Assembly: GCA_024330925.1 (NCBI GenBank)
Contig: JANDJK010000003.1
Coordinates: 2,075-66,074 of the forward strand
Reading direction: 5' to 3'
DNA: 64,000 nt
Origin: Nitrospira sp.
GTDB taxonomy: Bacteria; Nitrospirota; Nitrospiria; Nitrospirales; Nitrospiraceae
Shown: positions 54,896 to 63,638 of the stretch, in pieces
Layout of the letters: every line of letters begins with the position of its first letter
Position numbering within the stretch: position 1 is the first letter of the stretch
Translations under genes and position numbers: made by a program
Notes under the pieces: model-generated
What the model saw: the letters and a program-made list of their open reading frames with translations, nothing else
The model's database searches: none
What the model was told of the DNA's origin: nothing

Positions 54896-55927
54896 CTACC
54901 CGCGGAAACTTCTTTCGTTTAGCTCCCGCTGGATGTTCCTCTTGTCTAGCAGCACGAGACACAGAAGACCGATACCAATCCACACCAACTCGCGAAAGCG
55001 CCGCAGCAGAGCAAACGTCAAGCCGGTGACCTCGCTGTAGCCAAATGTTTTCAACAGAAGCACGTTGCCTCCATCCTGCGCACCGAGGCTGCCAGGAATG
55101 AAAAACGAACCGCCCTTGATGAACACAGCGAGCGCCCCAATGGAAAACGCCGACAAGACAGTTGTTGGTCCCCCCAGGTAATGGAGAATCACAAAGACCT
55201 CCAACGCTTCTGCCATCCACCCGAGAAAATAGATACCGATCGAAGCATAAAACGCCCCTTGGCGGTGATGGTAAAATTGGAGAATCGTTCGGTCAATGGC
55301 TCGCAGATCCTCTTCCCGCGATTCCAGAAACGCCACGCGCAAACGAAGCGCCTTGGCCACAGCCAACATCGAGGCAAATAGCCCTCGGCGCTGCACAAAC
55401 ACGAACGCCCCAATGGAGCAGACTAAGAGTCCCACACTAAGCACCGCTGCTGTCACCGTGGATCCCCCCGAGCTGCCCGCACCGAGCAAAATGAATCCGA
55501 GAGCCATTCCCAGCAGGATGTAACCAACCTCAGCAATAGTCATGGTGGTCTTCGCAATCACCACCGAGGCGCCTCCCTCTTCAACCGGCACGCGATATTG
55601 TTTAAGAAGATAAGCTTTAAGCGGCTCGCCGCCCAAATAGGCCGTGGGGGTCGTCATATTCACAACCTCGCCAGCCATTCGAATGGTCAGAAGCCGCCAG
55701 AATGGTACCCCTCGTCCAGCGGGCCCCAGCACCACACGCCACCCATATGCTTCAACGACATACATCAGAACAGAAGGACACAACATCACAACGAGAGCGC
55801 CCGGCCCTAACCGAGCAGTGGTCTCGTAGATGTTCGTAGGACCGATGTGCCAAATAAGAAGACCGAGAACAGCAAGACCAAACGCCAGGAGGAAATAACG
55901 GACCACGTGAGATTCACACAGGACCAT
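54896..55927 (-). CDS. Lysylphosphatidylglycerol-synthase TM / UPF0104 flippase-like membrane protein
   Basis: About 8 TM segments; NMTTPTAYLGGEP, FFIPGSLGAQDGG, LLRRFRE; start may be GTG 55906. Confidence 0.85.
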   Translation of the reverse strand: MVLCESHVVRYFLLAFGLAVLGLLIWHIGPTNIYETTARLGPGALVVMLCPSVLMYVVEAYGWRVVLGPAGRGVPFWRLLTIRMAGEVVNMTTPTAYLGGEPLKAYLLKQYRVPVEEGGASVVIAKTTMTIAEVGYILLGMALGFILLGAGSSGGSTVTAAVLSVGLLVCSIGAFVFVQRRGLFASMLAVAKALRLRVAFLESREEDLRAIDRTILQFYHHRQGAFYASIGIYFLGWMAEALEVFVILHYLGGPTTVLSAFSIGALAVFIKGGSFFIPGSLGAQDGGNVLLLKTFGYSEVTGLTFALLRRFRELVWIGIGLLCLVLLDKRNIQRELNERSFRG

Positions 55928-57371
55928 TGGGCGGTGTCACGGCGGAGGGGCGAATCACCCATGCCATGACCGCGGCAAAGAGAAGGGACCCCACTGCCGC
56001 ACAGCTAAGAAACCAGTCCAGTTTGGCCAATATCGCAAACAACAGCAGCATTAGGGAGAAATCACGGCTAGCGACATTCTTGAGCATGAAATCCGCCCAT
56101 GCCGCGCCGGCCGCTGTTTTCCACCGATTTGCCGCCTTGATTTTTCGCGCCTGCTCCACCAGGAGAAACGATAACCCATTACCCAAGACGGTCACCCCTC
56201 CTAGCGCCAACCAGCCCCAGGCACCCGGTTCCCCCATTCGCACCGTATACAGGCCGATGGCAATGCCCGTAAAAATAGCCATATGCACCAGATTGTCGAG
56301 AAAAAGATCGAGCCAGGCGCCAAACGGCGATTCCGCGAATGTCAACCGCGCTACCTCCCCATCGCAACAATCGATCACGGCCGCCAATTGAAACAGCAAG
56401 GCCGCGACAACCCCGGCTGCATAGGTTCCTATTGAAAATCCCACTGCAGCCGTGAAGCCGATCAAGGAGGCAACCACCGTAATCACATTGGGGGACCATC
56501 CGGCCCTGAGAAAAAGCCGTGTGAACCATCGAGAGAGCTTCCGGTTGAAGTATCGATCCACAAATCCTTCAGCATCTGCCCTCAAAGAGTGGAACAGTTT
56601 GCGCTCAGCGAGCGGCAGATCAGATGGAACTGTGACCTCTTGGTACCATAACCCTTGTTTGTCGGTCGCCTCGACGACCCGAACGTTGCCGTCGCCCCCC
56701 ACCAGTTCCAGCCAACGACGGATCGGAAGCCGCCCTAGTTCCATGCCGCCATCTCTCGAAGCACTCGTCAACAGAGCTGCTGGTAACACCACCATAGCAG
56801 CCGCTAGGGGCGCGGTATGATCGCCAGGCGGGGGTGCCCAGGCGGTCAACCGCTTACCACAGACTTGCAACCGGACTCCACTTTTGACTGATCCCCGGTT
56901 CCCCATCGTCGACGATCGAGACAACGGCCGCGCCACAACAATCGCCTTGCCATGCCGAGATTCCCGCCTGAGGTGCTCGATCAGATGAGGCGAGAAAATG
57001 GCATTCGCGCTCAACAGCAGGACGCAATCGCCAACCTCGGCGCCCAAAAATTCCCATGTTCTCGGATCATCGAGGGGAAATTCTCGGATCGGCATCCATC
57101 GGACAGGAATCGACACACGCGGGCCGCTGCTTAAGGCCTGCTTCAAATGCTCCTCTTCGGGACCGGTCAACACAATCAGTTGGCGAATACCACCCCGCTG
57201 CAACGTCAGAACCGCTCGCTGAAACAGACTGATGCCCACCACCGACGCCAGAGGGTCAACCTCTCCCGGCCGAACAGTGATGGAATCACCCAGCAAATCA
57301 ACCGACGGAAAAAGCACAGCCGTTACCAAGCCCCGAATACCAATCCGTTTTTGCACCAGACTCTCGTTCAT
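55914..57371 (-). CDS. NTP-transferase-like domain fused to CDP-alcohol phosphotransferase
   Basis: C-terminal signature DCCDGEVAR-x8-G-x3-D-x3-D. DRYFNRKLS...SPNVIT as in DIPP-synthase-like enzymes. Degenerate N-terminal GT-A/NTP-transferase fold (VVGISLFQRAVLTLQRGGIRQLIV). Confidence 0.85.
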   Translation of the reverse strand: MNESLVQKRIGIRGLVTAVLFPSVDLLGDSITVRPGEVDPLASVVGISLFQRAVLTLQRGGIRQLIVLTGPEEEHLKQALSSGPRVSIPVRWMPIREFPLDDPRTWEFLGAEVGDCVLLLSANAIFSPHLIEHLRRESRHGKAIVVARPLSRSSTMGNRGSVKSGVRLQVCGKRLTAWAPPPGDHTAPLAAAMVVLPAALLTSASRDGGMELGRLPIRRWLELVGGDGNVRVVEATDKQGLWYQEVTVPSDLPLAERKLFHSLRADAEGFVDRYFNRKLSRWFTRLFLRAGWSPNVITVVASLIGFTAAVGFSIGTYAAGVVAALLFQLAAVIDCCDGEVARLTFAESPFGAWLDLFLDNLVHMAIFTGIAIGLYTVRMGEPGAWGWLALGGVTVLGNGLSFLLVEQARKIKAANRWKTAAGAAWADFMLKNVASRDFSLMLLLFAILAKLDWFLSCAAVGSLLFAAVMAWVIRPSAVTPPNGPV

Positions 57372-57423: not shown

Positions 57424-58143
57424 TCATAATTTGGGCAATACGTCGCGTTCGGCCTTTTTCACATCCTCCGGAAAATCGATCTCCGTCCAGGGCAACCCAC
57501 CGATCCGTTCATAGCCAACACGGACAGTTTGAAAAAAGGGGTGCAAGGCATCCTCGTATTCCATGCCCCAAGCCCCTTGATCAACAAACGACTGCAGGGC
57601 AGCAATCATATGAGGGGTATCGGCCCGGCGCACACGAAGAAACCCCACACCTTCCCCGGCTACATCGTACCGTTCGGGCAAACGTTTCGATAGAGCAATC
57701 ACTCGCTCACCCGCCACGGCTACCATACATTCTTCACCTGTCTGCACCACCGTTTCATCCATCAAGAGCGCGTTGGGATGAGACGATTCAACCAACCGCT
57801 TAAGAATCAGCCGGTGAAACAAGACATCGGCATCCATCACAATTACATCGTCATCCAGTGCCTCGCGGGCAACCCACAGCGAAGAGATACTGCCGCGATG
57901 GAACCCCTCGTTCACCAGAAAATTCACTGCGACGCCACAGTGATGCTGCCGAACCGCCTCACGGATCATCTCCTGCTTATATCCCACCACGATGTCGGCT
58001 CGCCTAATTCCGAGCCAGGCCAACGTCTCCAAAGAGCGATGCAGGAGCGAACGTCCCCCAAATTCGATTAAGCATTTGGGACGGTGTTGCGTGATGGGCC
58101 ACAACCGTTTGCCGACACCGGCCGCAAGGATGACGGCTTTCAT
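57424..58143 (-). CDS. Phosphocholine/phosphonate cytidylyltransferase (LicC/PntC family)
   Basis: MKAVILAAGVGKRL, RPKCL, MDADV, WTEIDFPED; ATGA-coupled to the transaminase. Confidence 0.9.
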   Translation of the reverse strand: MKAVILAAGVGKRLWPITQHRPKCLIEFGGRSLLHRSLETLAWLGIRRADIVVGYKQEMIREAVRQHHCGVAVNFLVNEGFHRGSISSLWVAREALDDDVIVMDADVLFHRLILKRLVESSHPNALLMDETVVQTGEECMVAVAGERVIALSKRLPERYDVAGEGVGFLRVRRADTPHMIAALQSFVDQGAWGMEYEDALHPFFQTVRVGYERIGGLPWTEIDFPEDVKKAERDVLPKL

Positions 58144-59222
58144 GCGCCTCCACACACGTGCTCGAAGGCATCAAGAAATCCGGTCACCTGTGTTTCGGTC
58201 AGCACGCCCATGTTCGCCACACGGAAAATCCGGTTCTCCAGGTTGCCCTGCCCAGCATAGATCACATACCCTTCAGCCTTCAGCCGATCATGCAGGGTCT
58301 GATAGGAGAGGCCTTCTGGAAGATAGTACGCCGTGATCGTGTTCGACCGATGGTCCGGCGGGAGCACTGGCTTGACACCCAGCTTGGCCATGCGTTCGCG
58401 AATCAGAGCTGCCATTCGCTTATAACGCCGAATCCGGTTGGCCACCCCCTCTTCCAACAGTTCACTTAACGCCTCATCGAAGGCATAATACACCTGAACC
58501 GCGGGTGTAAACGGGATCGTTCCCCTCCCTTCCTCGTCAATGTAGTGGGTCAGATGAAGATACCACGAACGTTTGGGATACGACCTCATTCGCTCGACGA
58601 ACCCTTTGCGCACCAGCACAAACGACACACCAGGAAACCCCTGAATACACTTTCCCGCCGTGCCTGCCACCATGTAAATATGAGACCCGGCGATATCGAG
58701 GTCTTCACCAGCCAGGGCACTGACGGCGTCAAGGACAAAGACGCGGTTTTGATCGTCAACCACCTTAGCGATCTCCCGAACGGGATTGATCAACCCCGTC
58801 GTCGTTTCATGATGAACCATAGCAACGGCGTGCACCTCCTGGTGTTGCCGTAGTGCCAGCAACAGTTTGTCGGGGTCTGGTCGTTCTGTCCATCCATACT
58901 TCAACTCACTTACGCCTAACCGGTGGAGTCCCACAATCTGAGACATCCGTGCTCCATAGACACCATTGTTGATGATGAGCGCACGGCGGCCATGCGGCAG
59001 CGACGACATGAGAGCAGCCTCGACAGCGGCTGTTCCCGACCCCGTGATAACGACCGCAACATAGTCTGATTCCGCTCCCGGCACGAACGCCGCCAGCAGC
59101 TTGCGCTGAATACGGTGCAATAACTCCGTAAATTCCGATTCGCGATGACAGATATCAGGGCGCAACAGAGCCTGTCGCACCCGCTCGCTCACATTGACCG
59201 GCCCTGGATTGAGAAGAATCAT
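58140..59222 (-). CDS. 2-aminoethylphosphonate aminotransferase (PhnW/AepZ-like, class V PLP)
   Basis: LLNPGP, GSGTAAVE, NGVYGAR, HHETTTG..NP, TAGKCIQGFPG (PLP Lys), FTPAVQ, YVIYAGQ..FRVANMG. Confidence 0.9.
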   Translation of the reverse strand: MILLNPGPVNVSERVRQALLRPDICHRESEFTELLHRIQRKLLAAFVPGAESDYVAVVITGSGTAAVEAALMSSLPHGRRALIINNGVYGARMSQIVGLHRLGVSELKYGWTERPDPDKLLLALRQHQEVHAVAMVHHETTTGLINPVREIAKVVDDQNRVFVLDAVSALAGEDLDIAGSHIYMVAGTAGKCIQGFPGVSFVLVRKGFVERMRSYPKRSWYLHLTHYIDEEGRGTIPFTPAVQVYYAFDEALSELLEEGVANRIRRYKRMAALIRERMAKLGVKPVLPPDHRSNTITAYYLPEGLSYQTLHDRLKAEGYVIYAGQGNLENRIFRVANMGVLTETQVTGFLDAFEHVCGGA

Positions 59223-59318
59223 CCTCCTCCGTCGGCTTGCCCAGCTCGCGCAATTCACAGAGCGTCCGCCCCAGCCGCTTTCCTCCTCGTCAGGTGAGGC
59301 TCCCGCTCTTGCGATTCC

Positions 59319-59897
59319 TCATGCAATAGCGTGCATGAACCGTTTCGTCAGCTCCGGCGGATCAAGAGCTATCCGCTCCGCCTCTTCCTGAAACTCGTTG
59401 ACCTTGACCAATAACATGCTGGGACCGTTCTTGTTGAGCAGCTCTCGGAATTCGTAGACCATATCGTCTCGATCGAGCACCCGCACCGTATTGACGTAAC
59501 CCGCCGCCCTCGCCACTTGCTCCAGGGGAACCACATTGGAGATTGTCGGTTGATTGCCAGTGGAGCCATACACTTCATTATCAAAGACAACATGAATGAA
59601 ATTGCTGGGTTTCAACGCCCCCACCGTCGCCAACGTCCCCATCCCCATTAAGACATTGCCATCCCCATCAAACGTCACAACCTGTTTGTGCGGCTTGGCC
59701 AACGCCACTCCCAACGCAATGGCCGACGCATTACCCATGGACCCTATCATGTAAAAATGTGTGGGGCGATCAGCAATTTTCTGCACCTCACGTGCTGGAA
59801 AACCGTTGCAGACGATGAGGGGCTGATCCGTCAACAGCTCTAGCAACGCTTCGATAGCCTGCGCCCGGCTGACTAAGGTACCTTCCTCTGGCCTCAT
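59319..59897 (-). CDS. Phosphonopyruvate decarboxylase, beta (TPP-binding) subunit
   Basis: FYMIGSMG, DGDGNVLMGMG (GDG motif), DNEVYGSTGNQPT. Confidence 0.85.
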   Translation of the reverse strand: MRPEEGTLVSRAQAIEALLELLTDQPLIVCNGFPAREVQKIADRPTHFYMIGSMGNASAIALGVALAKPHKQVVTFDGDGNVLMGMGTLATVGALKPSNFIHVVFDNEVYGSTGNQPTISNVVPLEQVARAAGYVNTVRVLDRDDMVYEFRELLNKNGPSMLLVKVNEFQEEAERIALDPPELTKRFMHAIA

Positions 59898-60004: not shown

Positions 60005-60502
60005 TTACGGATGCAAGCCTTTGACCACACCCTTCGTAATGAGAAGAGCCACTGGTGTCAGTCTTGTCCGATAGGTGTCGGTCACCCACGCCAAGTCTTC
60101 CCGCATCGTGGCCTCTGTGAGCAAGCGGTGCGGAATGTTCACCGTATCCAGAAGACGGGGGAGCACTTCTCCCATGATGAGATGCTCCGGCGCATCTTTG
60201 CCCTCATACCCTCGCCATGACACAATTAAAATACAGGGCTGACGGTAAATCATGTTTAGTGACAACAGGGTATTAAGCGACGTTCCCAATCCCGAATTCT
60301 GCATGAGGACCGCCGGCATCTTTCCCCCCATATAGGCTCCGGCTGCCATTGCCACCGCCTCGTCCTCCCGCACGGCAGGAACGTACAGGCGCCGATTCAT
60401 TAATTCAGCAATGATGCCCCCGAGTATAGAATCGGGCACGCCCGTGAAAAAATTCACCCCTCTCTCTTGAAGCGACTGGACAAACACGTCGCTCTCGATC
60501 AT
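60005..60502 (-). CDS. Phosphonopyruvate decarboxylase, alpha subunit
   Basis: FFTGVPDS, REDEAVAMAAG, MQNSGLG, SWRGYEGKDAPEH..MG. Confidence 0.85.
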   Translation of the reverse strand: MIESDVFVQSLQERGVNFFTGVPDSILGGIIAELMNRRLYVPAVREDEAVAMAAGAYMGGKMPAVLMQNSGLGTSLNTLLSLNMIYRQPCILIVSWRGYEGKDAPEHLIMGEVLPRLLDTVNIPHRLLTEATMREDLAWVTDTYRTRLTPVALLITKGVVKGLHP

Positions 60503-60675: not shown

Positions 60676-61251
60676 GTGCTGTTTTTCGTGGCGACTATGA
60701 GACAGGGATTTTCACATCGGCGAGAGAAGCCCCCCTTTTCGCTCGTGGTGGTTGGATGGGTCACCGCCTGGATCGCCTGGCTCACCGTTCTTGAACCTCT
60801 GGCAGCCGTTTCCATGCTCAATGACCCCGGTGGCTTCCACGGTATTCGCTGGGGGAGTCCGCTTTCATCCAGGAATGACCTCGAGTTACTGCGAGCTAGC
60901 AGTCACATCACGGAATATCGTTCCAAAACGGGCGACACCACGTTTGCTGGAGCCGAAATGACCAGCATTTCGTTCGTGGCATTGAACGATCAGTTCGCCC
61001 GGGTGACCATTCGATACGAAGGAGAGGCGATCCACAAGCAAGTGTTGAATTTCCTTGAATCCCATTATGGGGCTCTCCAGAGAATTCCAGGACAGATGAC
61101 GCGAGGGCTGAACCAGCAATACACTTGGCGTGGGCCAGACACTGAAATCTCGCTGACCTACCAAGCCAACACACAACGGGGATTCATCTTTATCGACAGT
61201 CGGACCCTGGCACCCCGGTTCAACGATGACTTAACCGATTCGGCCGAATGA
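60676..61251 (+). CDS. Exported hypothetical protein
   Basis: SD AGGAGG before GTG; hydrophobic N-terminal segment; FHGIRWG...YTWRGPDTEI. Confidence 0.75.
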   Translation: MLFFVATMRQGFSHRREKPPFSLVVVGWVTAWIAWLTVLEPLAAVSMLNDPGGFHGIRWGSPLSSRNDLELLRASSHITEYRSKTGDTTFAGAEMTSISFVALNDQFARVTIRYEGEAIHKQVLNFLESHYGALQRIPGQMTRGLNQQYTWRGPDTEISLTYQANTQRGFIFIDSRTLAPRFNDDLTDSAE

Positions 61252-61356: not shown

Positions 61357-61386
61357 TTGACATCTCGCCCATGGCTTTCGCATCAT
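61357..61386 (+). promoter_or_regulatory. Possible promoter giving a leaderless pepM transcript
   Basis: TTGACA-18-CATCAT; predicted start site coincides with ATG 61394; no SD present. Confidence 0.3.
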
Positions 61387-63070
61387 GGCGGCCATGACCA
61401 ATGCTCAGAAACTTCGAGCCGCCCTCAAACGACCTGGCGCCTTGAAAATCGTGGGTGCCCACGACGCGCTCAGTGCCCGCCTCATCGAGCAAGCCGGCTT
61501 CGACGGCATTTGGGTCAGTGGGTTCGCTGTCTCGGCGGCGCTGAAATGTGTCCCCGACGCCAGTTTCATCGACTCCAGTGAACAACTCGCCGTCGAACGG
61601 AACATCGTCGAAGCGGTCAACATTCCCGTCATCTCTGACTGCGACACTGGCTACGGCAACGCCTTGAACGTGATGCGCACCGTCAACGACCGCGAGCGCG
61701 CTGGTGTTGCCGGTATCTGCCTCGAAGACAATGTGTACCCAAAACGATGCAGCTTCTACGCCGGTGTACGCCGAGAATTGATTCCCATTAACGAGCACTG
61801 CGGCAAGATCAGAGCGGCCAAGGCTGCCCAGATGTCTCCCGATTTTCTGATCATTGCAAGGACCGAGGCCTTGATTGCGGGGTGGGGACAAGAAGAAGCA
61901 CTGAAACGAGCGGAGGCCTATGCCGAAGCAGGTGCTGATGCGGTGCTGATCCATTCAAAGTCCAAAAACTTCGACGAGCTACGGGCTGTCTATCGAGCGT
62001 GGTCTGGTCGGGTTCCACTCGTTGTCGTACCTACAATTTTCGATCAAACCACAGCAGCGGAGATGGAAGAGGCCGGTGCCAAGATCATCATCTACGCCAA
62101 CCAACCGGTGCGGGCAGCGATCCGCGCCATGCGGGAGGCGCTTCGTCGCATCAAAGAAGACACGCGCCCTGGAGCCGCCAATGATTTAATTGTCCCACTT
62201 CAGGATGTCTATGACCTAGTCGGCGTTTCAGAGATGGAACGTCATGAACGGGAATTCCTCCCCGTGGGTGGAGAAAAGATCACCGCCGTGATTGCCGCAG
62301 CGGGATTTGAAAAACAGTTGCTGCCCCTCATCGAAGATAAACCCAAGTGCCTGCTCGACATCAAGGGCAAAACCATTCTTGACCGACAGGTAGCGGCACT
62401 GAATGCCTGCAACATCAAGGACATCGCCCTGATACGGGGATATAAGAAAGAAGCCATTACCCTCCCCCATATCCGCTACTATGACAACGACTGCTACGAA
62501 ACCACAGGCGAGCTCTTTTCCCTGTTCTGTGCCGAAAATGAATTGAACGGACGAATCATTGTCCTCTATGGCGATATCATCTTTGACACTGCCATCCTGG
62601 AGAAGCTGCTCAAGAGCCCAGCCGACATTGCCATCGTCGTGGATCTAGCCTGGTTTGACCAGAGCCAACACCATGCGCCAGTACCCCATCTGAATCCTGA
62701 TTTAGTCTCCCTTGCCGAGCTGCCAGACCGAAGCTATCTGTCACGGTTCATGGTCTCCGAGGGAGACCACCGCGTTGTCAAGATCGGCCGACACATCCCC
62801 CCCAGCAACGCCCACGGTGAATTCATCGGCATGGCCATGTTCTCCGAAAAGGGCACCCAAGCACTGCGCGACTGTTACCGGGCAGCCCAGGCACGACCTC
62901 TCCCTCACGGCTTCCACGAGGCGCCGAGCCTTGCGACCGCCTCTCTGACCGATATGATTCAAGAACTGATCGATCAAGGCCATCAAGTTCACGCCGTCCC
63001 AATCTTCAAAGGATGGATGGAGGTCGATTCGTTCGAAGAATACCAGAAAGCCTGGGCCAAGATTCGATAG
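61385..63070 (+). CDS. PEP mutase-family domain fused to C-terminal cytidylyltransferase-like domain
   Basis: GAHDALSA, WVSG, D58, D85xD87 (SDCDTGYG), E114, K120, R159 (IART), H190 (LIHS). C-terminal KPKCLLDIKG...YGDIIF...WMEVD. Located in an AEP gene context. Confidence 0.85.
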   Translation: MAAMTNAQKLRAALKRPGALKIVGAHDALSARLIEQAGFDGIWVSGFAVSAALKCVPDASFIDSSEQLAVERNIVEAVNIPVISDCDTGYGNALNVMRTVNDRERAGVAGICLEDNVYPKRCSFYAGVRRELIPINEHCGKIRAAKAAQMSPDFLIIARTEALIAGWGQEEALKRAEAYAEAGADAVLIHSKSKNFDELRAVYRAWSGRVPLVVVPTIFDQTTAAEMEEAGAKIIIYANQPVRAAIRAMREALRRIKEDTRPGAANDLIVPLQDVYDLVGVSEMERHEREFLPVGGEKITAVIAAAGFEKQLLPLIEDKPKCLLDIKGKTILDRQVAALNACNIKDIALIRGYKKEAITLPHIRYYDNDCYETTGELFSLFCAENELNGRIIVLYGDIIFDTAILEKLLKSPADIAIVVDLAWFDQSQHHAPVPHLNPDLVSLAELPDRSYLSRFMVSEGDHRVVKIGRHIPPSNAHGEFIGMAMFSEKGTQALRDCYRAAQARPLPHGFHEAPSLATASLTDMIQELIDQGHQVHAVPIFKGWMEVDSFEEYQKAWAKIR

Positions 63071-63230: not shown

Positions 63231-63638
63231 ATGAGGCAATCCCTGAACAGCCGGGCGCTCAAACCCTCCATGCGAAAAGACAAACGGCTTGCGGAGCGGA
63301 TCACCTACACCTGCGCCGTCTCCTTCACTGGAGAGATTCCTTCTCAACCCCATCAAGGGACAGGACTAACCCAGAACATCTCCATCACCGGACTGAAAAT
63401 CATAAGTCATTCTCCAGTCACCCGCGGCACGCTTCTGACGATTTCGCTAGCTCTGCCAGATGGTCAACCGCCGCTGACGATCTATTCAGCCCATGTTGTG
63501 TGGGTCTCCGGCGCCCATTTCTCCGTGCGCTTCCTACGCCTGCACCGAGATCAGCGGAAGCGGATCCTGTCTTTTGTGTTGAAGCACATCGGTAAAGCAG
63601 CAATGAACGATTCCTGGTCTCGCTTCACACTCATGTAA
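63231..63638 (+). CDS. Single-domain PilZ protein
   Basis: RLAER (RxxxR), NISITG (NxSxxG), AHVVWV...VRF. Confidence 0.8.
   Translation: MRQSLNSRALKPSMRKDKRLAERITYTCAVSFTGEIPSQPHQGTGLTQNISITGLKIISHSPVTRGTLLTISLALPDGQPPLTIYSAHVVWVSGAHFSVRFLRLHRDQRKRILSFVLKHIGKAAMNDSWSRFTLM

What the first reader, a model, noticed from the sequence alone, without database searches (positions are those of the whole stretch)
61724..61753. Non-canonical PEP mutase loop EDNVYPKRCS: Cys at the conserved Asn position
Seen: E114-D-N-V-Y-P-K120-R-C122-S, with D58, D85, D87, R159 and the PepM/PPH-type LIHS H190 retained. Known: PEP mutases are usually identified by EDK-x5-NS, whereas 2-methylisocitrate and isocitrate lyases carry K(R/K)CGH with a catalytic Cys at this position. 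Inference: this is a hybrid loop in a clear phosphonate gene context. It could mark a PepM clade missed by motif-filtered phosphonate surveys, or an enzyme with altered chemistry or redox control.
Basis: partly seen in the sequence, partly recalled or inferred. Interest (0 to 1): 0.8.

Follow-up and report, generated by a model that had tools for sequence, protein, structure and literature searches.

The report
PEP mutase with a cysteine lid
This Nitrospira gene very probably encodes a working carbon-phosphorus bond-forming enzyme (PEP mutase) whose active-site lid reads EDN...KRCS instead of the "diagnostic" EDK...NS, so published counts of phosphonate producers miss this widespread group.

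Summary
Window 61724-61753 encodes E-D-N-V-Y-P-K-R-C-S. It aligns without gaps to EDKxFPKxNS of solved PEP mutases and EDKTFPKDTS of phosphonopyruvate hydrolase. There are two deviations, K116N and N122C; every other catalytic residue is kept.

This is a conserved signature. It occurs in 80 of 80 Nitrospirales species loci and in Bacillus thuringiensis, Acidobacteriota, Binatia, Rokubacteria and Aspergillus homologues.

The strongest evidence is a natural gene swap. Of 401 sampled Nitrospirota genomes, 117 Nitrospirales carry the same split-ppd gene, and its AEP cluster was mapped in about 60 loci. Ninety-one genomes have only a canonical EDKLFPKTNSF mutase fusion and 26 have only the Cys-lid fusion. 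None has both. In one complete genome the canonical gene is an orphan among housekeeping genes. Another canonical-type genome keeps a frameshifted stump of the Cys-lid gene at the cluster.

The Cys-lid enzyme is therefore almost certainly the phosphonopyruvate supplier. The lid matches methylisocitrate/isocitrate lyases at five positions, which suggests a retained ancestral state, but tree tests could not settle this. I found no evidence for altered chemistry or redox control. No published characterisation was found. The scan had already reached the same reading on other DNA.

The parts
61385..63070 (+). Gene for the Cys-lid PEP mutase fused to a C-terminal MobA-like nucleotidyltransferase (561 aa as ORF; likely true start ATG 61394, 558 aa)
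   Evidence: ORF and translation. PF13714 at residues 11-256, E 2e-59; PF12804 at residues 319-420. Best PDB hits are PEP mutases 5unc (E 3e-82) and 1m1b, and PPH 2dua. Homologue N-termini support the later start.
61724..61753 (+). Lid (gating-loop) motif E114-D-N116-V-Y-P-K120-R121-C122-S123
61556..61954 (+). Span holding the retained catalytic residues D58, D85, D87 and E114 (Mg2+/water ligands) and R159 and H190 (phosphoryl pocket)
   Evidence: Read from the sequence. Alignments. Residue roles from PMC7916636.
62282..63070 (+). Fused nucleotidyltransferase domain (residues 300-561); its N-terminal loop reads AAAGFEKQL, not the usual AAGxGxRL
61357..61386 (+). Promoter-like site TTGACA-18-CATCAT ending just before ATG 61394 (possibly a leaderless transcript)
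   Evidence: This is a consensus match only.
60676..61251 (+). Conserved hypothetical 191-aa protein with an N-terminal hydrophobic segment, directly upstream of the mutase
   Evidence: tblastn hits in 77 of 88 loci at 33-86% identity, far stronger than the opposite frame. Nitrospirota-only Atlas clusters, one of them auto-named 'lipoprotein family'. No Pfam or NCBIfam match.
60005..60502 (-). Phosphonopyruvate decarboxylase alpha subunit (split Ppd)
   Evidence: PF02776; TIGR03297 positions 1-156, E 4e-37.
59319..59897 (-). Phosphonopyruvate decarboxylase beta subunit
   Evidence: PF02775; TIGR03297 positions 169-358, E 1e-51; TIGR03846 E 6.5e-56. Found in all 117 Nitrospirales genomes sampled.
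58140..59258 (-). 2-aminoethylphosphonate (AEP) transaminase
   Evidence: TIGR03301 PhnW-AepZ, 342.5 bits, E 3e-102.
57424..58155 (-). Stand-alone PntC/LicC-like nucleotidyltransferase with an intact AAGVGKRL loop
   Evidence: PF00483 and PF12804; sequence.
55914..57371 (-). CDP-alcohol phosphotransferase with an N-terminal extension (IPCT/DIPPS-like layout)
   Evidence: PF01066 at residues 294-445; NF041135.
54896..55927 (-). Flippase-like membrane protein (LPG_synthase_TM / HpnL-like)
   Evidence: PF03706, E 5e-35; TIGR03476.
63231..63638 (+). PilZ-domain protein; a syntenic flank marker downstream of the mutase
   Evidence: PF07238. Syntenic in relatives with and without the Cys-lid gene.

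Best explanation
The gene encodes a functional PEP mutase (PEP to phosphonopyruvate) of a widespread 'Cys-lid' type, fused to a nucleotidyltransferase domain. Shown from sequence: the Mg2+ site (D58, D85, D87, E114), lid Lys120 and phosphoryl pocket (S123, R159, H190) are those of PepM. Inferred: Cys122, with F124, replaces Asn122/Leu124 as the lid residues that enclose the migrating phosphoryl group and keep water out. The lost Lys116 charge may be offset by the conserved Arg121 and Arg130. Because the lyase His of K(K/R)CGH is absent (the motif here is C-S-F), the Cys is unlikely to act as a lyase-type acid/base. The phosphonopyruvate is pulled forward by the divergently transcribed split Ppd, aminated to AEP, CMP-activated and transferred by the CDP-alcohol transferase to a membrane acceptor.
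For: 1. The domain is closest to solved PEP mutases (5unc E 3e-82; 1m1b E 6e-64), with all catalytic residues except K116 and N122.
2. It is the only strong PF13714 gene in its own genome and in five further Nitrospirales genomes, four of them single-contig assemblies, that each carry one split ppd.
3. Natural swap. Among 401 Nitrospirota genomes, orthologous PpdB is in 117 of 117 Nitrospirales. Ninety-one genomes have only a canonical fused PepM (380-400 bits to TIGR02320; EDKLFPKTNSF in 34 of the 35 loci read, the other EDKKGLKRNSL; 38-40% identical to ours). Twenty-six have only the Cys-lid type (267-290 bits). None has both, and three genera hold both types.
4. Five canonical-type genomes keep the orthologous ppd cluster (PpdB 81-83% identical in the four Nitrospiraceae, 65% in G093), unlinked to their PepM, and have no Cys-lid gene. 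In complete genome G194 the canonical PepM is an orphan between truA/amidase and cysE/ispF. Its ppd cluster has the same PilZ flank but no mutase.
5. Canonical-type genome G302 retains a frameshifted stump, 26 of 30 residues identical to the last 30 codons of the Cys-lid fusion, at the syntenic place.
6. Outside Nitrospirales, Cys-lid genes also sit next to Ppd-like TPP enzymes: L093, L094, L095 (B. thuringiensis) and L097. So do 32 of 80 metagenome loci.
7. Cys122 is invariant across the group, which indicates selection.
Against: No enzyme of this type has been assayed. The two substituted positions are part of the motif held to define PepM, and position 122 is the one usually blamed for the mutase/hydrolase difference (PMC7916636). 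The protein scores below NCBIfam's PepM cut-off (275 against 319.55 bits). Three Nitrospiraceae genomes (G070, G290, G314) have ppdAB and the AEP transaminase but no detectable PepM of either type, so a ppd gene does not strictly prove that a mutase is present. In distant Nitrospirales the gene is not linked to ppd. The 26 Cys-lid genomes in the 401-genome sample were classed by bit score; the motif itself was read in the separate set of 80 species loci.
Confidence: 0.85

Rival explanations
1. It is a working mutase, but the lid Cys adds something canonical enzymes lack: a redox or thiol switch that locks the lid under oxidising conditions, or a different partition between transfer and hydrolysis.
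For: Cys122 is strictly invariant rather than drifting to Ser, Ala or Asn. Cys never co-occurs with Lys116 among the 150 representatives. The lid differs from canonical PepM at several coordinated positions.
Against: Nothing in the sequence or context points to redox control, and no partner Cys is conserved in the lid. The same state is shared with the lyase outgroup, so simple retention of an ancestral residue explains it. Free exchange with canonical PepM in sister species argues that the two forms are equivalent in vivo.
Confidence: 0.08
2. It has changed chemistry: a phosphonopyruvate hydrolase-like enzyme or a lyase acting on a phosphonate or carboxylate substrate, not a mutase.
For: Position 122 is Thr in PPH and is thought to decide mutase versus hydrolase. 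K-R-C is the lyase signature. The NCBIfam scores for PepM (275) and PPH (263) are close and both fall below their cut-offs.
Against: In 26 Nitrospirales genomes, and in the further genomes checked, it is the only candidate source of phosphonopyruvate for a conserved Ppd/AEP pathway. It is mutually exclusive with a bona fide PepM. A hydrolase would destroy the pathway's substrate. The lyase G-H after the Cys is replaced by S-F, and PepM/PPH-specific H190 is present where lyases have Ile/Glu. No phosphonoalanine/PalB-type catabolic genes are nearby.
Confidence: 0.04
3. The mutase domain is catalytically dead and serves only as a scaffold or regulator for the fused nucleotidyltransferase.
For: It fails the motif and the trusted cut-off. 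The fused NTP domain is itself atypical.
Against: All metal and phosphoryl ligands are invariant across 80 species and across phyla. Stand-alone, unfused Cys-lid proteins exist next to Ppd. The genomes would have no C-P bond-forming enzyme.
Confidence: 0.03

Closest known systems
Canonical PEP mutase (PepM/Ppm/AepX, EC 5.4.2.9; TIGR02320; Mytilus edulis 1M1B/1PYM, Streptomyces 5UNC), including the common Ppm-NTP_transf_3 fusions of Rice et al. 2019
   Same: Same fold and domain architecture (C-terminal PF12804 fusion). Same Mg2+ ligands, lid Lys120, S123, R159 and H190. Same genomic partners (Ppd, AEP transaminase, PntC-like enzyme). Interchangeable with it in Nitrospirales genomes.
   Different: N116 for K116 and C122 for N122. 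Also F47, R121, Y125 and R130, where canonical enzymes have L, variable, variable and Q. Scores 275 bits against a 319.55 cut-off. About 40% identical to the canonical Nitrospira enzyme.
Phosphonopyruvate hydrolase (PPH/PalA, TIGR02321; Variovorax 2DUA)
   Same: Close homologue (E 6e-71). Same metal and phosphoryl residues. Also departs from Asn at position 122.
   Different: PPH keeps K116 and has Thr122 (EDKTFPKDTS). In my trees PPH-like proteins nest inside the canonical EDK crown, not with the Cys-lid group. PPH is catabolic, whereas this gene sits in a biosynthetic cluster.
2-methylisocitrate lyase / isocitrate lyase (K(K/R)CGH lid)
   Same: Shares K120-R121-C122, plus F47, Y125 and R130.
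   Different: Lacks the Gly-His that follows the catalytic Cys. Has Asn, not Gln, at 116. Has PepM-type S123 and H190. Only 33-36% identical to the lyase-like genes of Nitrospirales genomes.
'Group 1 phosphonolipid' / 'Burkholderiales_CDP-OH' ppm neighbourhoods
   Same: The same gene set: ppm, ppd, AEP transaminase, nucleotidyltransferase and CDP-alcohol transferase.
   Different: I did not verify those cluster names in the papers. Here the ppm lacks the motif those inventories required, so this version would not have been counted.

Membership tests
PEP mutase (PepM/Ppm) | PEP mutase/ICL fold, with PepM as the nearest characterised relatives | tested here: met
   PF13714 E 2e-59; PDB 5unc E 3e-82 and 1m1b E 6e-64.
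PEP mutase (PepM/Ppm) | Mg2+/water ligands D58, D85, D87, E114 and lid Lys120 | tested here: met
   present in 80 of 80 loci.
PEP mutase (PepM/Ppm) | Phosphoryl pocket R159, H190, S123 | tested here: met
   Lyases have Ile/Glu at 190 and Gly at 123.
PEP mutase (PepM/Ppm) | Diagnostic motif EDKX5NS (K116 and N122) | tested here: not met
   The motif reads EDNVYPKRCS.
PEP mutase (PepM/Ppm) | NCBIfam TIGR02320 equivalog trusted cut-off (319.55 bits) | tested here: not met
   275.1 bits; 277.6 bits in the genome search.
PEP mutase (PepM/Ppm) | Genomic coupling to a phosphonopyruvate-consuming enzyme (Ppd) | tested here: met
   Divergent split ppd about 0.9 kb away. Found in 58-60 of 80 species loci. 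Also seen outside Nitrospirales.
PEP mutase (PepM/Ppm) | Sole possible source of phosphonopyruvate; substitutes for canonical PepM | tested here: met
PEP mutase (PepM/Ppm) | Catalysis of PEP <-> phosphonopyruvate | not testable with these tools
   Needs an enzyme assay.
Phosphonopyruvate hydrolase (PPH) | EDK...K-D-T-S lid (Thr at position 122) and the TIGR02321 cut-off (374.4 bits) | tested here: not met
   Cys at 122 and Asn at 116; 263 bits.
Phosphonopyruvate hydrolase (PPH) | Catabolic context (phosphonoalanine transaminase, transport genes) | tested here: not met
   The neighbours are biosynthetic: Ppd, NTP transferases and a CDP-alcohol transferase.
Methylisocitrate/isocitrate lyase | Full K(K/R)CGH motif, with the His that partners the Cys | tested here: not met
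   K-R-C-S-F here; lyase-like relatives read KRCGH or KKCGH.
Methylisocitrate/isocitrate lyase | NCBIfam prpB cut-off (354.4 bits) | tested here: not met
   201 bits.

The most novel reading that the evidence does not exclude
The Cys-lid proteins preserve the ancestral form of the C-P bond-forming enzyme. The mutase arose on a lyase-type lid (F47, R121, C122, Y125, R130). EDKX5NS is then a later invention of one crown clade, from which PPH also arose. If so, Asn122 is not what makes a mutase a mutase, and the 'diagnostic' motif defines a subclade, not the activity.
Probability: 0.35. Interest if true: 0.7.

Novelty: new variant of a known kind. Interest (0 to 1): 0.6.

Why it matters
Every survey read here accepts a PepM only with a perfect EDKX5NS motif: Rice 2019, Li & Horsman 2022, Acker 2022 and a 2025 actinomycete mining study. 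Yu 2013 is the source these papers cite for the motif; I did not read it. NCBI's PepM model also rejects these proteins.

In the Nitrospirota sample, that rule would miss 26 of 117 PepM-bearing genomes. These include many nitrite-oxidising Nitrospira, which are key players in the nitrogen cycle and in wastewater treatment. Homologues with the same lid occur in Bacillus thuringiensis, Acidobacteriota, Binatia, Rokubacteria and Aspergillus. Estimates of who makes phosphonates, and genome mining for phosphonate natural products, are therefore biased low.

For enzymology, a natural Asn122-to-Cys lid gives a direct test of how PEP mutase suppresses hydrolysis. It also offers a plausible intermediate between the lyases and the mutases of the superfamily.

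Tried and rejected
- **Literature.** Searches for the motif, for Asn122, for fungal PepM and for Nitrospira plus pepM or phosphonate found no characterised EDN...CS enzyme and no mention of the variant. The fosfonochlorin paper (DOI tried) is not held, so fungal PepMs could not be checked.
- **Tree topology.** Two ML trees put the lyase root among the Cys-lid lineages. AU tests reject neither Cys-lid monophyly (p 0.45) nor a root between the EDK crown and the rest (p 0.18). I therefore do not claim a paraphyletic grade.
- **Sulfopyruvate reading of the split decarboxylase.** TIGR03846 scores slightly higher than TIGR03297 for the beta subunit. I rejected this reading because the same cluster is paired with a bona fide canonical PepM in 91 genomes and the transaminase is AEP-type.
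- **Expression.** Only DNA runs from hot-spring metagenomes hold the sequence, so I did not lay reads.
- **Rfam scan of 54-64 kb.** Nothing was found.
- **Aspergillus niger neighbourhood.** No Ppd nearby, so it is uninformative.
- **P0123 contig.** No DNA was available.
- **Structure prediction.** Not run. The gap-free alignment at roughly 50% identity to 5UNC already fixes the position of Cys122, and the tools return no coordinates.
Full report
**Observation**

The ORF at window 61385-63070 (+) encodes 561 aa. It has an N-terminal PEP_mutase domain (PF13714, E 2e-59) and a C-terminal MobA-like nucleotidyltransferase domain (PF12804). Codons 61724-61753 read E-D-N-V-Y-P-K-R-C-S.

Gap-free HMMER alignments to solved structures place this stretch opposite three known lids:
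- EDKRFPKVNS of Streptomyces PEP mutase 5UNC (E 3e-82)
- EDKLFPKTNS of Mytilus PEP mutase 1M1B (E 6e-64)
- EDKTFPKDTS of phosphonopyruvate hydrolase 2DUA (E 6e-71)

The protein therefore departs from the published motif EDKX5NS at two places, K116N and N122C. It keeps D58, D85, D87, E114, K120, S123, R159 and H190.

NCBIfam scores are below every equivalog cut-off: PepM 275 against 319.55, PPH 263 against 374.4, PrpB 201 against 354.4.

Homologues mostly start MTNA.../MHNA.... The true start is therefore probably ATG 61394, which lies just after a promoter-like TTGACA-18-CATCAT.

**Context**

A divergent operon is transcribed from about 0.9 kb upstream. It encodes:
- a split phosphonopyruvate decarboxylase (60005-60502 and 59319-59897)
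- an AEP transaminase (TIGR03301, 342 bits)
- a stand-alone PntC/LicC-like nucleotidyltransferase
- a CDP-alcohol phosphotransferase fusion
- a flippase-like membrane protein

This is an AEP synthesis, CMP-activation and transfer cluster. The mutase gene is the only strong PF13714 hit in its own 2.44-Mb, 90.6%-complete assembly.

**How widespread the signature is**

The organism is a Nitrospira from a hot-spring metagenome.
- 119 of the 121 listed proteins (the query plus its 120 closest homologues) carry EDN[VM]YPKRCSF; my pattern failed to read the other two.
- All 80 GTDB species loci recovered, all Nitrospirales, have D,D,D,E,K,C,S,R,H at the nine key positions.
- Among the 150 best 50%-identity representatives of the whole library, the nine nearest representatives (50-62% identical) and 11 of the 13 nearest are EDN...K(R/K)CS, both fused and stand-alone. 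Lys116 never co-occurs with Cys122.
- Among the 118 nearest relatives of a stand-alone member, 100 are N...CS. Named sources include Bacillus thuringiensis, Acidobacteriota, Binatia, Omnitrophica, Rokubacteria and two Aspergillus species.

**Is it a mutase? The natural swap**

I searched 401 Nitrospirota genomes with TIGR02320.
- 91 have a match above the cut-off (380-400 bits).
- 26 have a match of 267-290 bits, like the window gene.
- No genome has both.
- Three genera contain both kinds.

Of the 35 high-scoring loci read, 34 have the motif EDKLFPKTNSF (one, L098, reads EDKKGLKRNSL). All but L098 are fused to an NTP transferase and are only 37-40% identical to the window domain.

An orthologue of the window's PpdB (62-100% identical) is present in all 117 Nitrospirales genomes sampled. 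Five canonical-type genomes have the orthologous ppd cluster (PpdB 81-83% identical in the four Nitrospiraceae, 65% in G093), unlinked to their PepM, and have no Cys-lid gene.

In the complete genome G194 the canonical PepM fusion is an orphan. It sits between truA/amidase and cysE/ispF, with no phosphonate gene nearby. The ppd cluster there has the same PilZ flank as the window, with 1.4 kb where the Cys-lid gene would be.

In G302, also canonical-type, the syntenic gap still holds a frameshifted stump. It matches 26 of the last 30 residues of the Cys-lid fusion, stop codon included, just upstream of PilZ. The close relatives G109 (Cys-lid, PpdB 90%) and G173 (canonical, PpdB 88%) differ only in which mutase they have.

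The simplest reading is that the two enzymes are interchangeable suppliers of phosphonopyruvate for one conserved pathway. At least one lineage deleted the Cys-lid gene and now carries only a canonical one.

Five further Nitrospirales genomes with the Cys-lid gene, four of them single-contig assemblies, each have one strong PF13714 gene and one split ppd, sometimes far apart.

**Outside Nitrospirales**

The association with Ppd persists.
- A fused member is followed by split TPP-enzyme genes (L093).
- A stand-alone member lies next to a 382-aa TPP enzyme (L094).
- The B. thuringiensis gene faces two aminotransferases, a split TPP enzyme, an Fe-ADH and a glycerate kinase (L095).
- A MAG has the fusion followed by a TPP_enzyme_C (Ppd beta-like) gene, a PF12804 enzyme, a CDP-alcohol transferase and a methyltransferase (L097).
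- Of 80 metagenome loci, 32 have Ppd nearby, in all but one within about 2.6 kb. Seventeen of the 29 loci with at least 3 kb on both sides do.

**Anatomy of the difference**

I compared 113 Cys-lid sequences with 85 canonical ones. Four positions met my conservation filter (47, 116, 122, 130); positions 121 and 125 are conserved only in the Cys-lid group:

| Position | Cys-lid | Canonical |
|---|---|---|
| 47 | F | L |
| 116 | N | K |
| 121 | R | variable |
| 122 | C | N |
| 125 | Y | variable |
| 130 | R | Q |

At five of these (47, 121, 122, 125, 130) the lyase outgroup shares the Cys-lid state. At S123 and H190 the Cys-lid group shares the PepM/PPH state. The lid is a true mosaic.

Established knowledge (review PMC7916636, citing Liu 2002/2004 and Chen 2006) gives the residue roles:
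- R159 and H190, and probably N122 and S123, hold the migrating phosphoryl group.
- The lid excludes water.
- N122T is the change usually blamed for hydrolysis in PPH.

From my own recollection of Liu et al. 2004, Asn122 and Leu124 surround the phosphoryl group. Here they are Cys and Phe. Since the His of the lyase C-G-H is missing, a lyase-type acid/base role for the Cys is unlikely. This mechanistic step is inference.

**Evolution**

A quick tree of 135 rows and a careful tree of 78 rows were both rooted on lyase-like sequences. Both put the root among Cys-lid lineages and recover the EDK...NS proteins as a well-supported crown (96* and 100/96*), with PPH-like proteins nested inside.

AU tests do not reject a single Cys-lid clade (p 0.45). 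They also do not reject a root between the crown and everything else (p 0.18). The topology is therefore open. Under either topology, outgroup comparison favours the Cys-lid states as ancestral.

**Caveats**

- Nothing has been assayed.
- Three Nitrospiraceae genomes (G070, G290, G314; each about 100% complete by marker genes) have ppdAB and the AEP transaminase but no mutase of either type. G402 has the full cluster without one.
- The 26 Cys-lid genomes of the sample were classed by score, not by reading each motif.

**Literature and the scan**

The four surveys I could read require EDKX5NS. Rice et al. 2019 discarded 22 fused proteins that lacked it. I found no paper describing the variant.

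Earlier agents of this scan reached the same 'Cys-lid PEP mutase' reading on other genomes. I saw those notes only after forming mine. The swap statistics, the orphan canonical gene and the deletion stump were worked out here.

**Verdict**

This is a real, conserved variant of a known enzyme, very probably a functional PEP mutase (0.85). It is undescribed in the literature I could search. It matters for phosphonate censuses and for understanding the lid.

Noticed in passing
window 60676-61251 (+): A conserved 191-aa hypothetical protein with an N-terminal hydrophobic segment lies between ppdA and the mutase. It is found in 77 of 88 related loci. It stays next to ppdA in genomes that lost the Cys-lid gene, and next to the mutase where the mutase is unlinked to ppd. 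It is Nitrospirota-only and has no Pfam family.
   Followed up: partly
L224:12243-12333 (genome G302): A frameshifted remnant of the last 30 codons of the Cys-lid mutase fusion (26 of 30 identical, with the stop codon) sits upstream of PilZ in a genome whose only mutase is canonical. It is a deletion scar.
   Followed up: yes
L138 (G070), L141 (G290), and G314: Three Nitrospiraceae genomes scored about 100% complete have ppdAB plus the AEP-type transaminase, but no NTP transferase or CDP-alcohol transferase beside them in the two loci read (G070, G290; G314's locus was not fetched). No PEP mutase of either kind was detected in any of the three. What feeds this decarboxylase there is unexplained.
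   Followed up: partly
window 62282-62420; L129 (G194) canonical fusion: The mutase-fused nucleotidyltransferase domains lack the AAGxGxRL loop in both the Cys-lid form (AAAGFEKQL) and the canonical form (LAASRGEEL). The stand-alone enzyme at 57424-58155 has AAGVGKRL. The fused domains may not be ordinary cytidylyltransferases.
   Followed up: no
L095 (Bacillus thuringiensis), L096 (metagenome), alignment A2: Stand-alone Cys-lid proteins of the B. thuringiensis type also have Asn for the Mg2+-site Asp87 (DCNAGFGN). They sit beside a roughly 315-aa prenyltransferase/squalene-cyclase-like protein, once next to an NRPS. This may be an unexplored phosphonate natural-product cluster type.
   Followed up: no
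window 61357-61394: A promoter-like TTGACA-18-CATCAT ends about 7 nt before ATG 61394, the start used by most homologues. The mutase mRNA may be leaderless, and the annotated ATG 61385 may be wrong.
   Followed up: partly
L142 (Aspergillus niger), P0378, P0381: Aspergillus species encode stand-alone EDNIFPKRCSF proteins about 50% identical to the bacterial ones, with no Ppd within 10 kb.
   Followed up: partly
L002 (G000:C86:1175-1489, just upstream of the window): A weak PF13714 match (27.6 bits, 297-aa frame). Similar hits of about 30 bits occur once per Nitrospirales genome. It is probably a distant superfamily member such as ketopantoate hydroxymethyltransferase.
   Followed up: no
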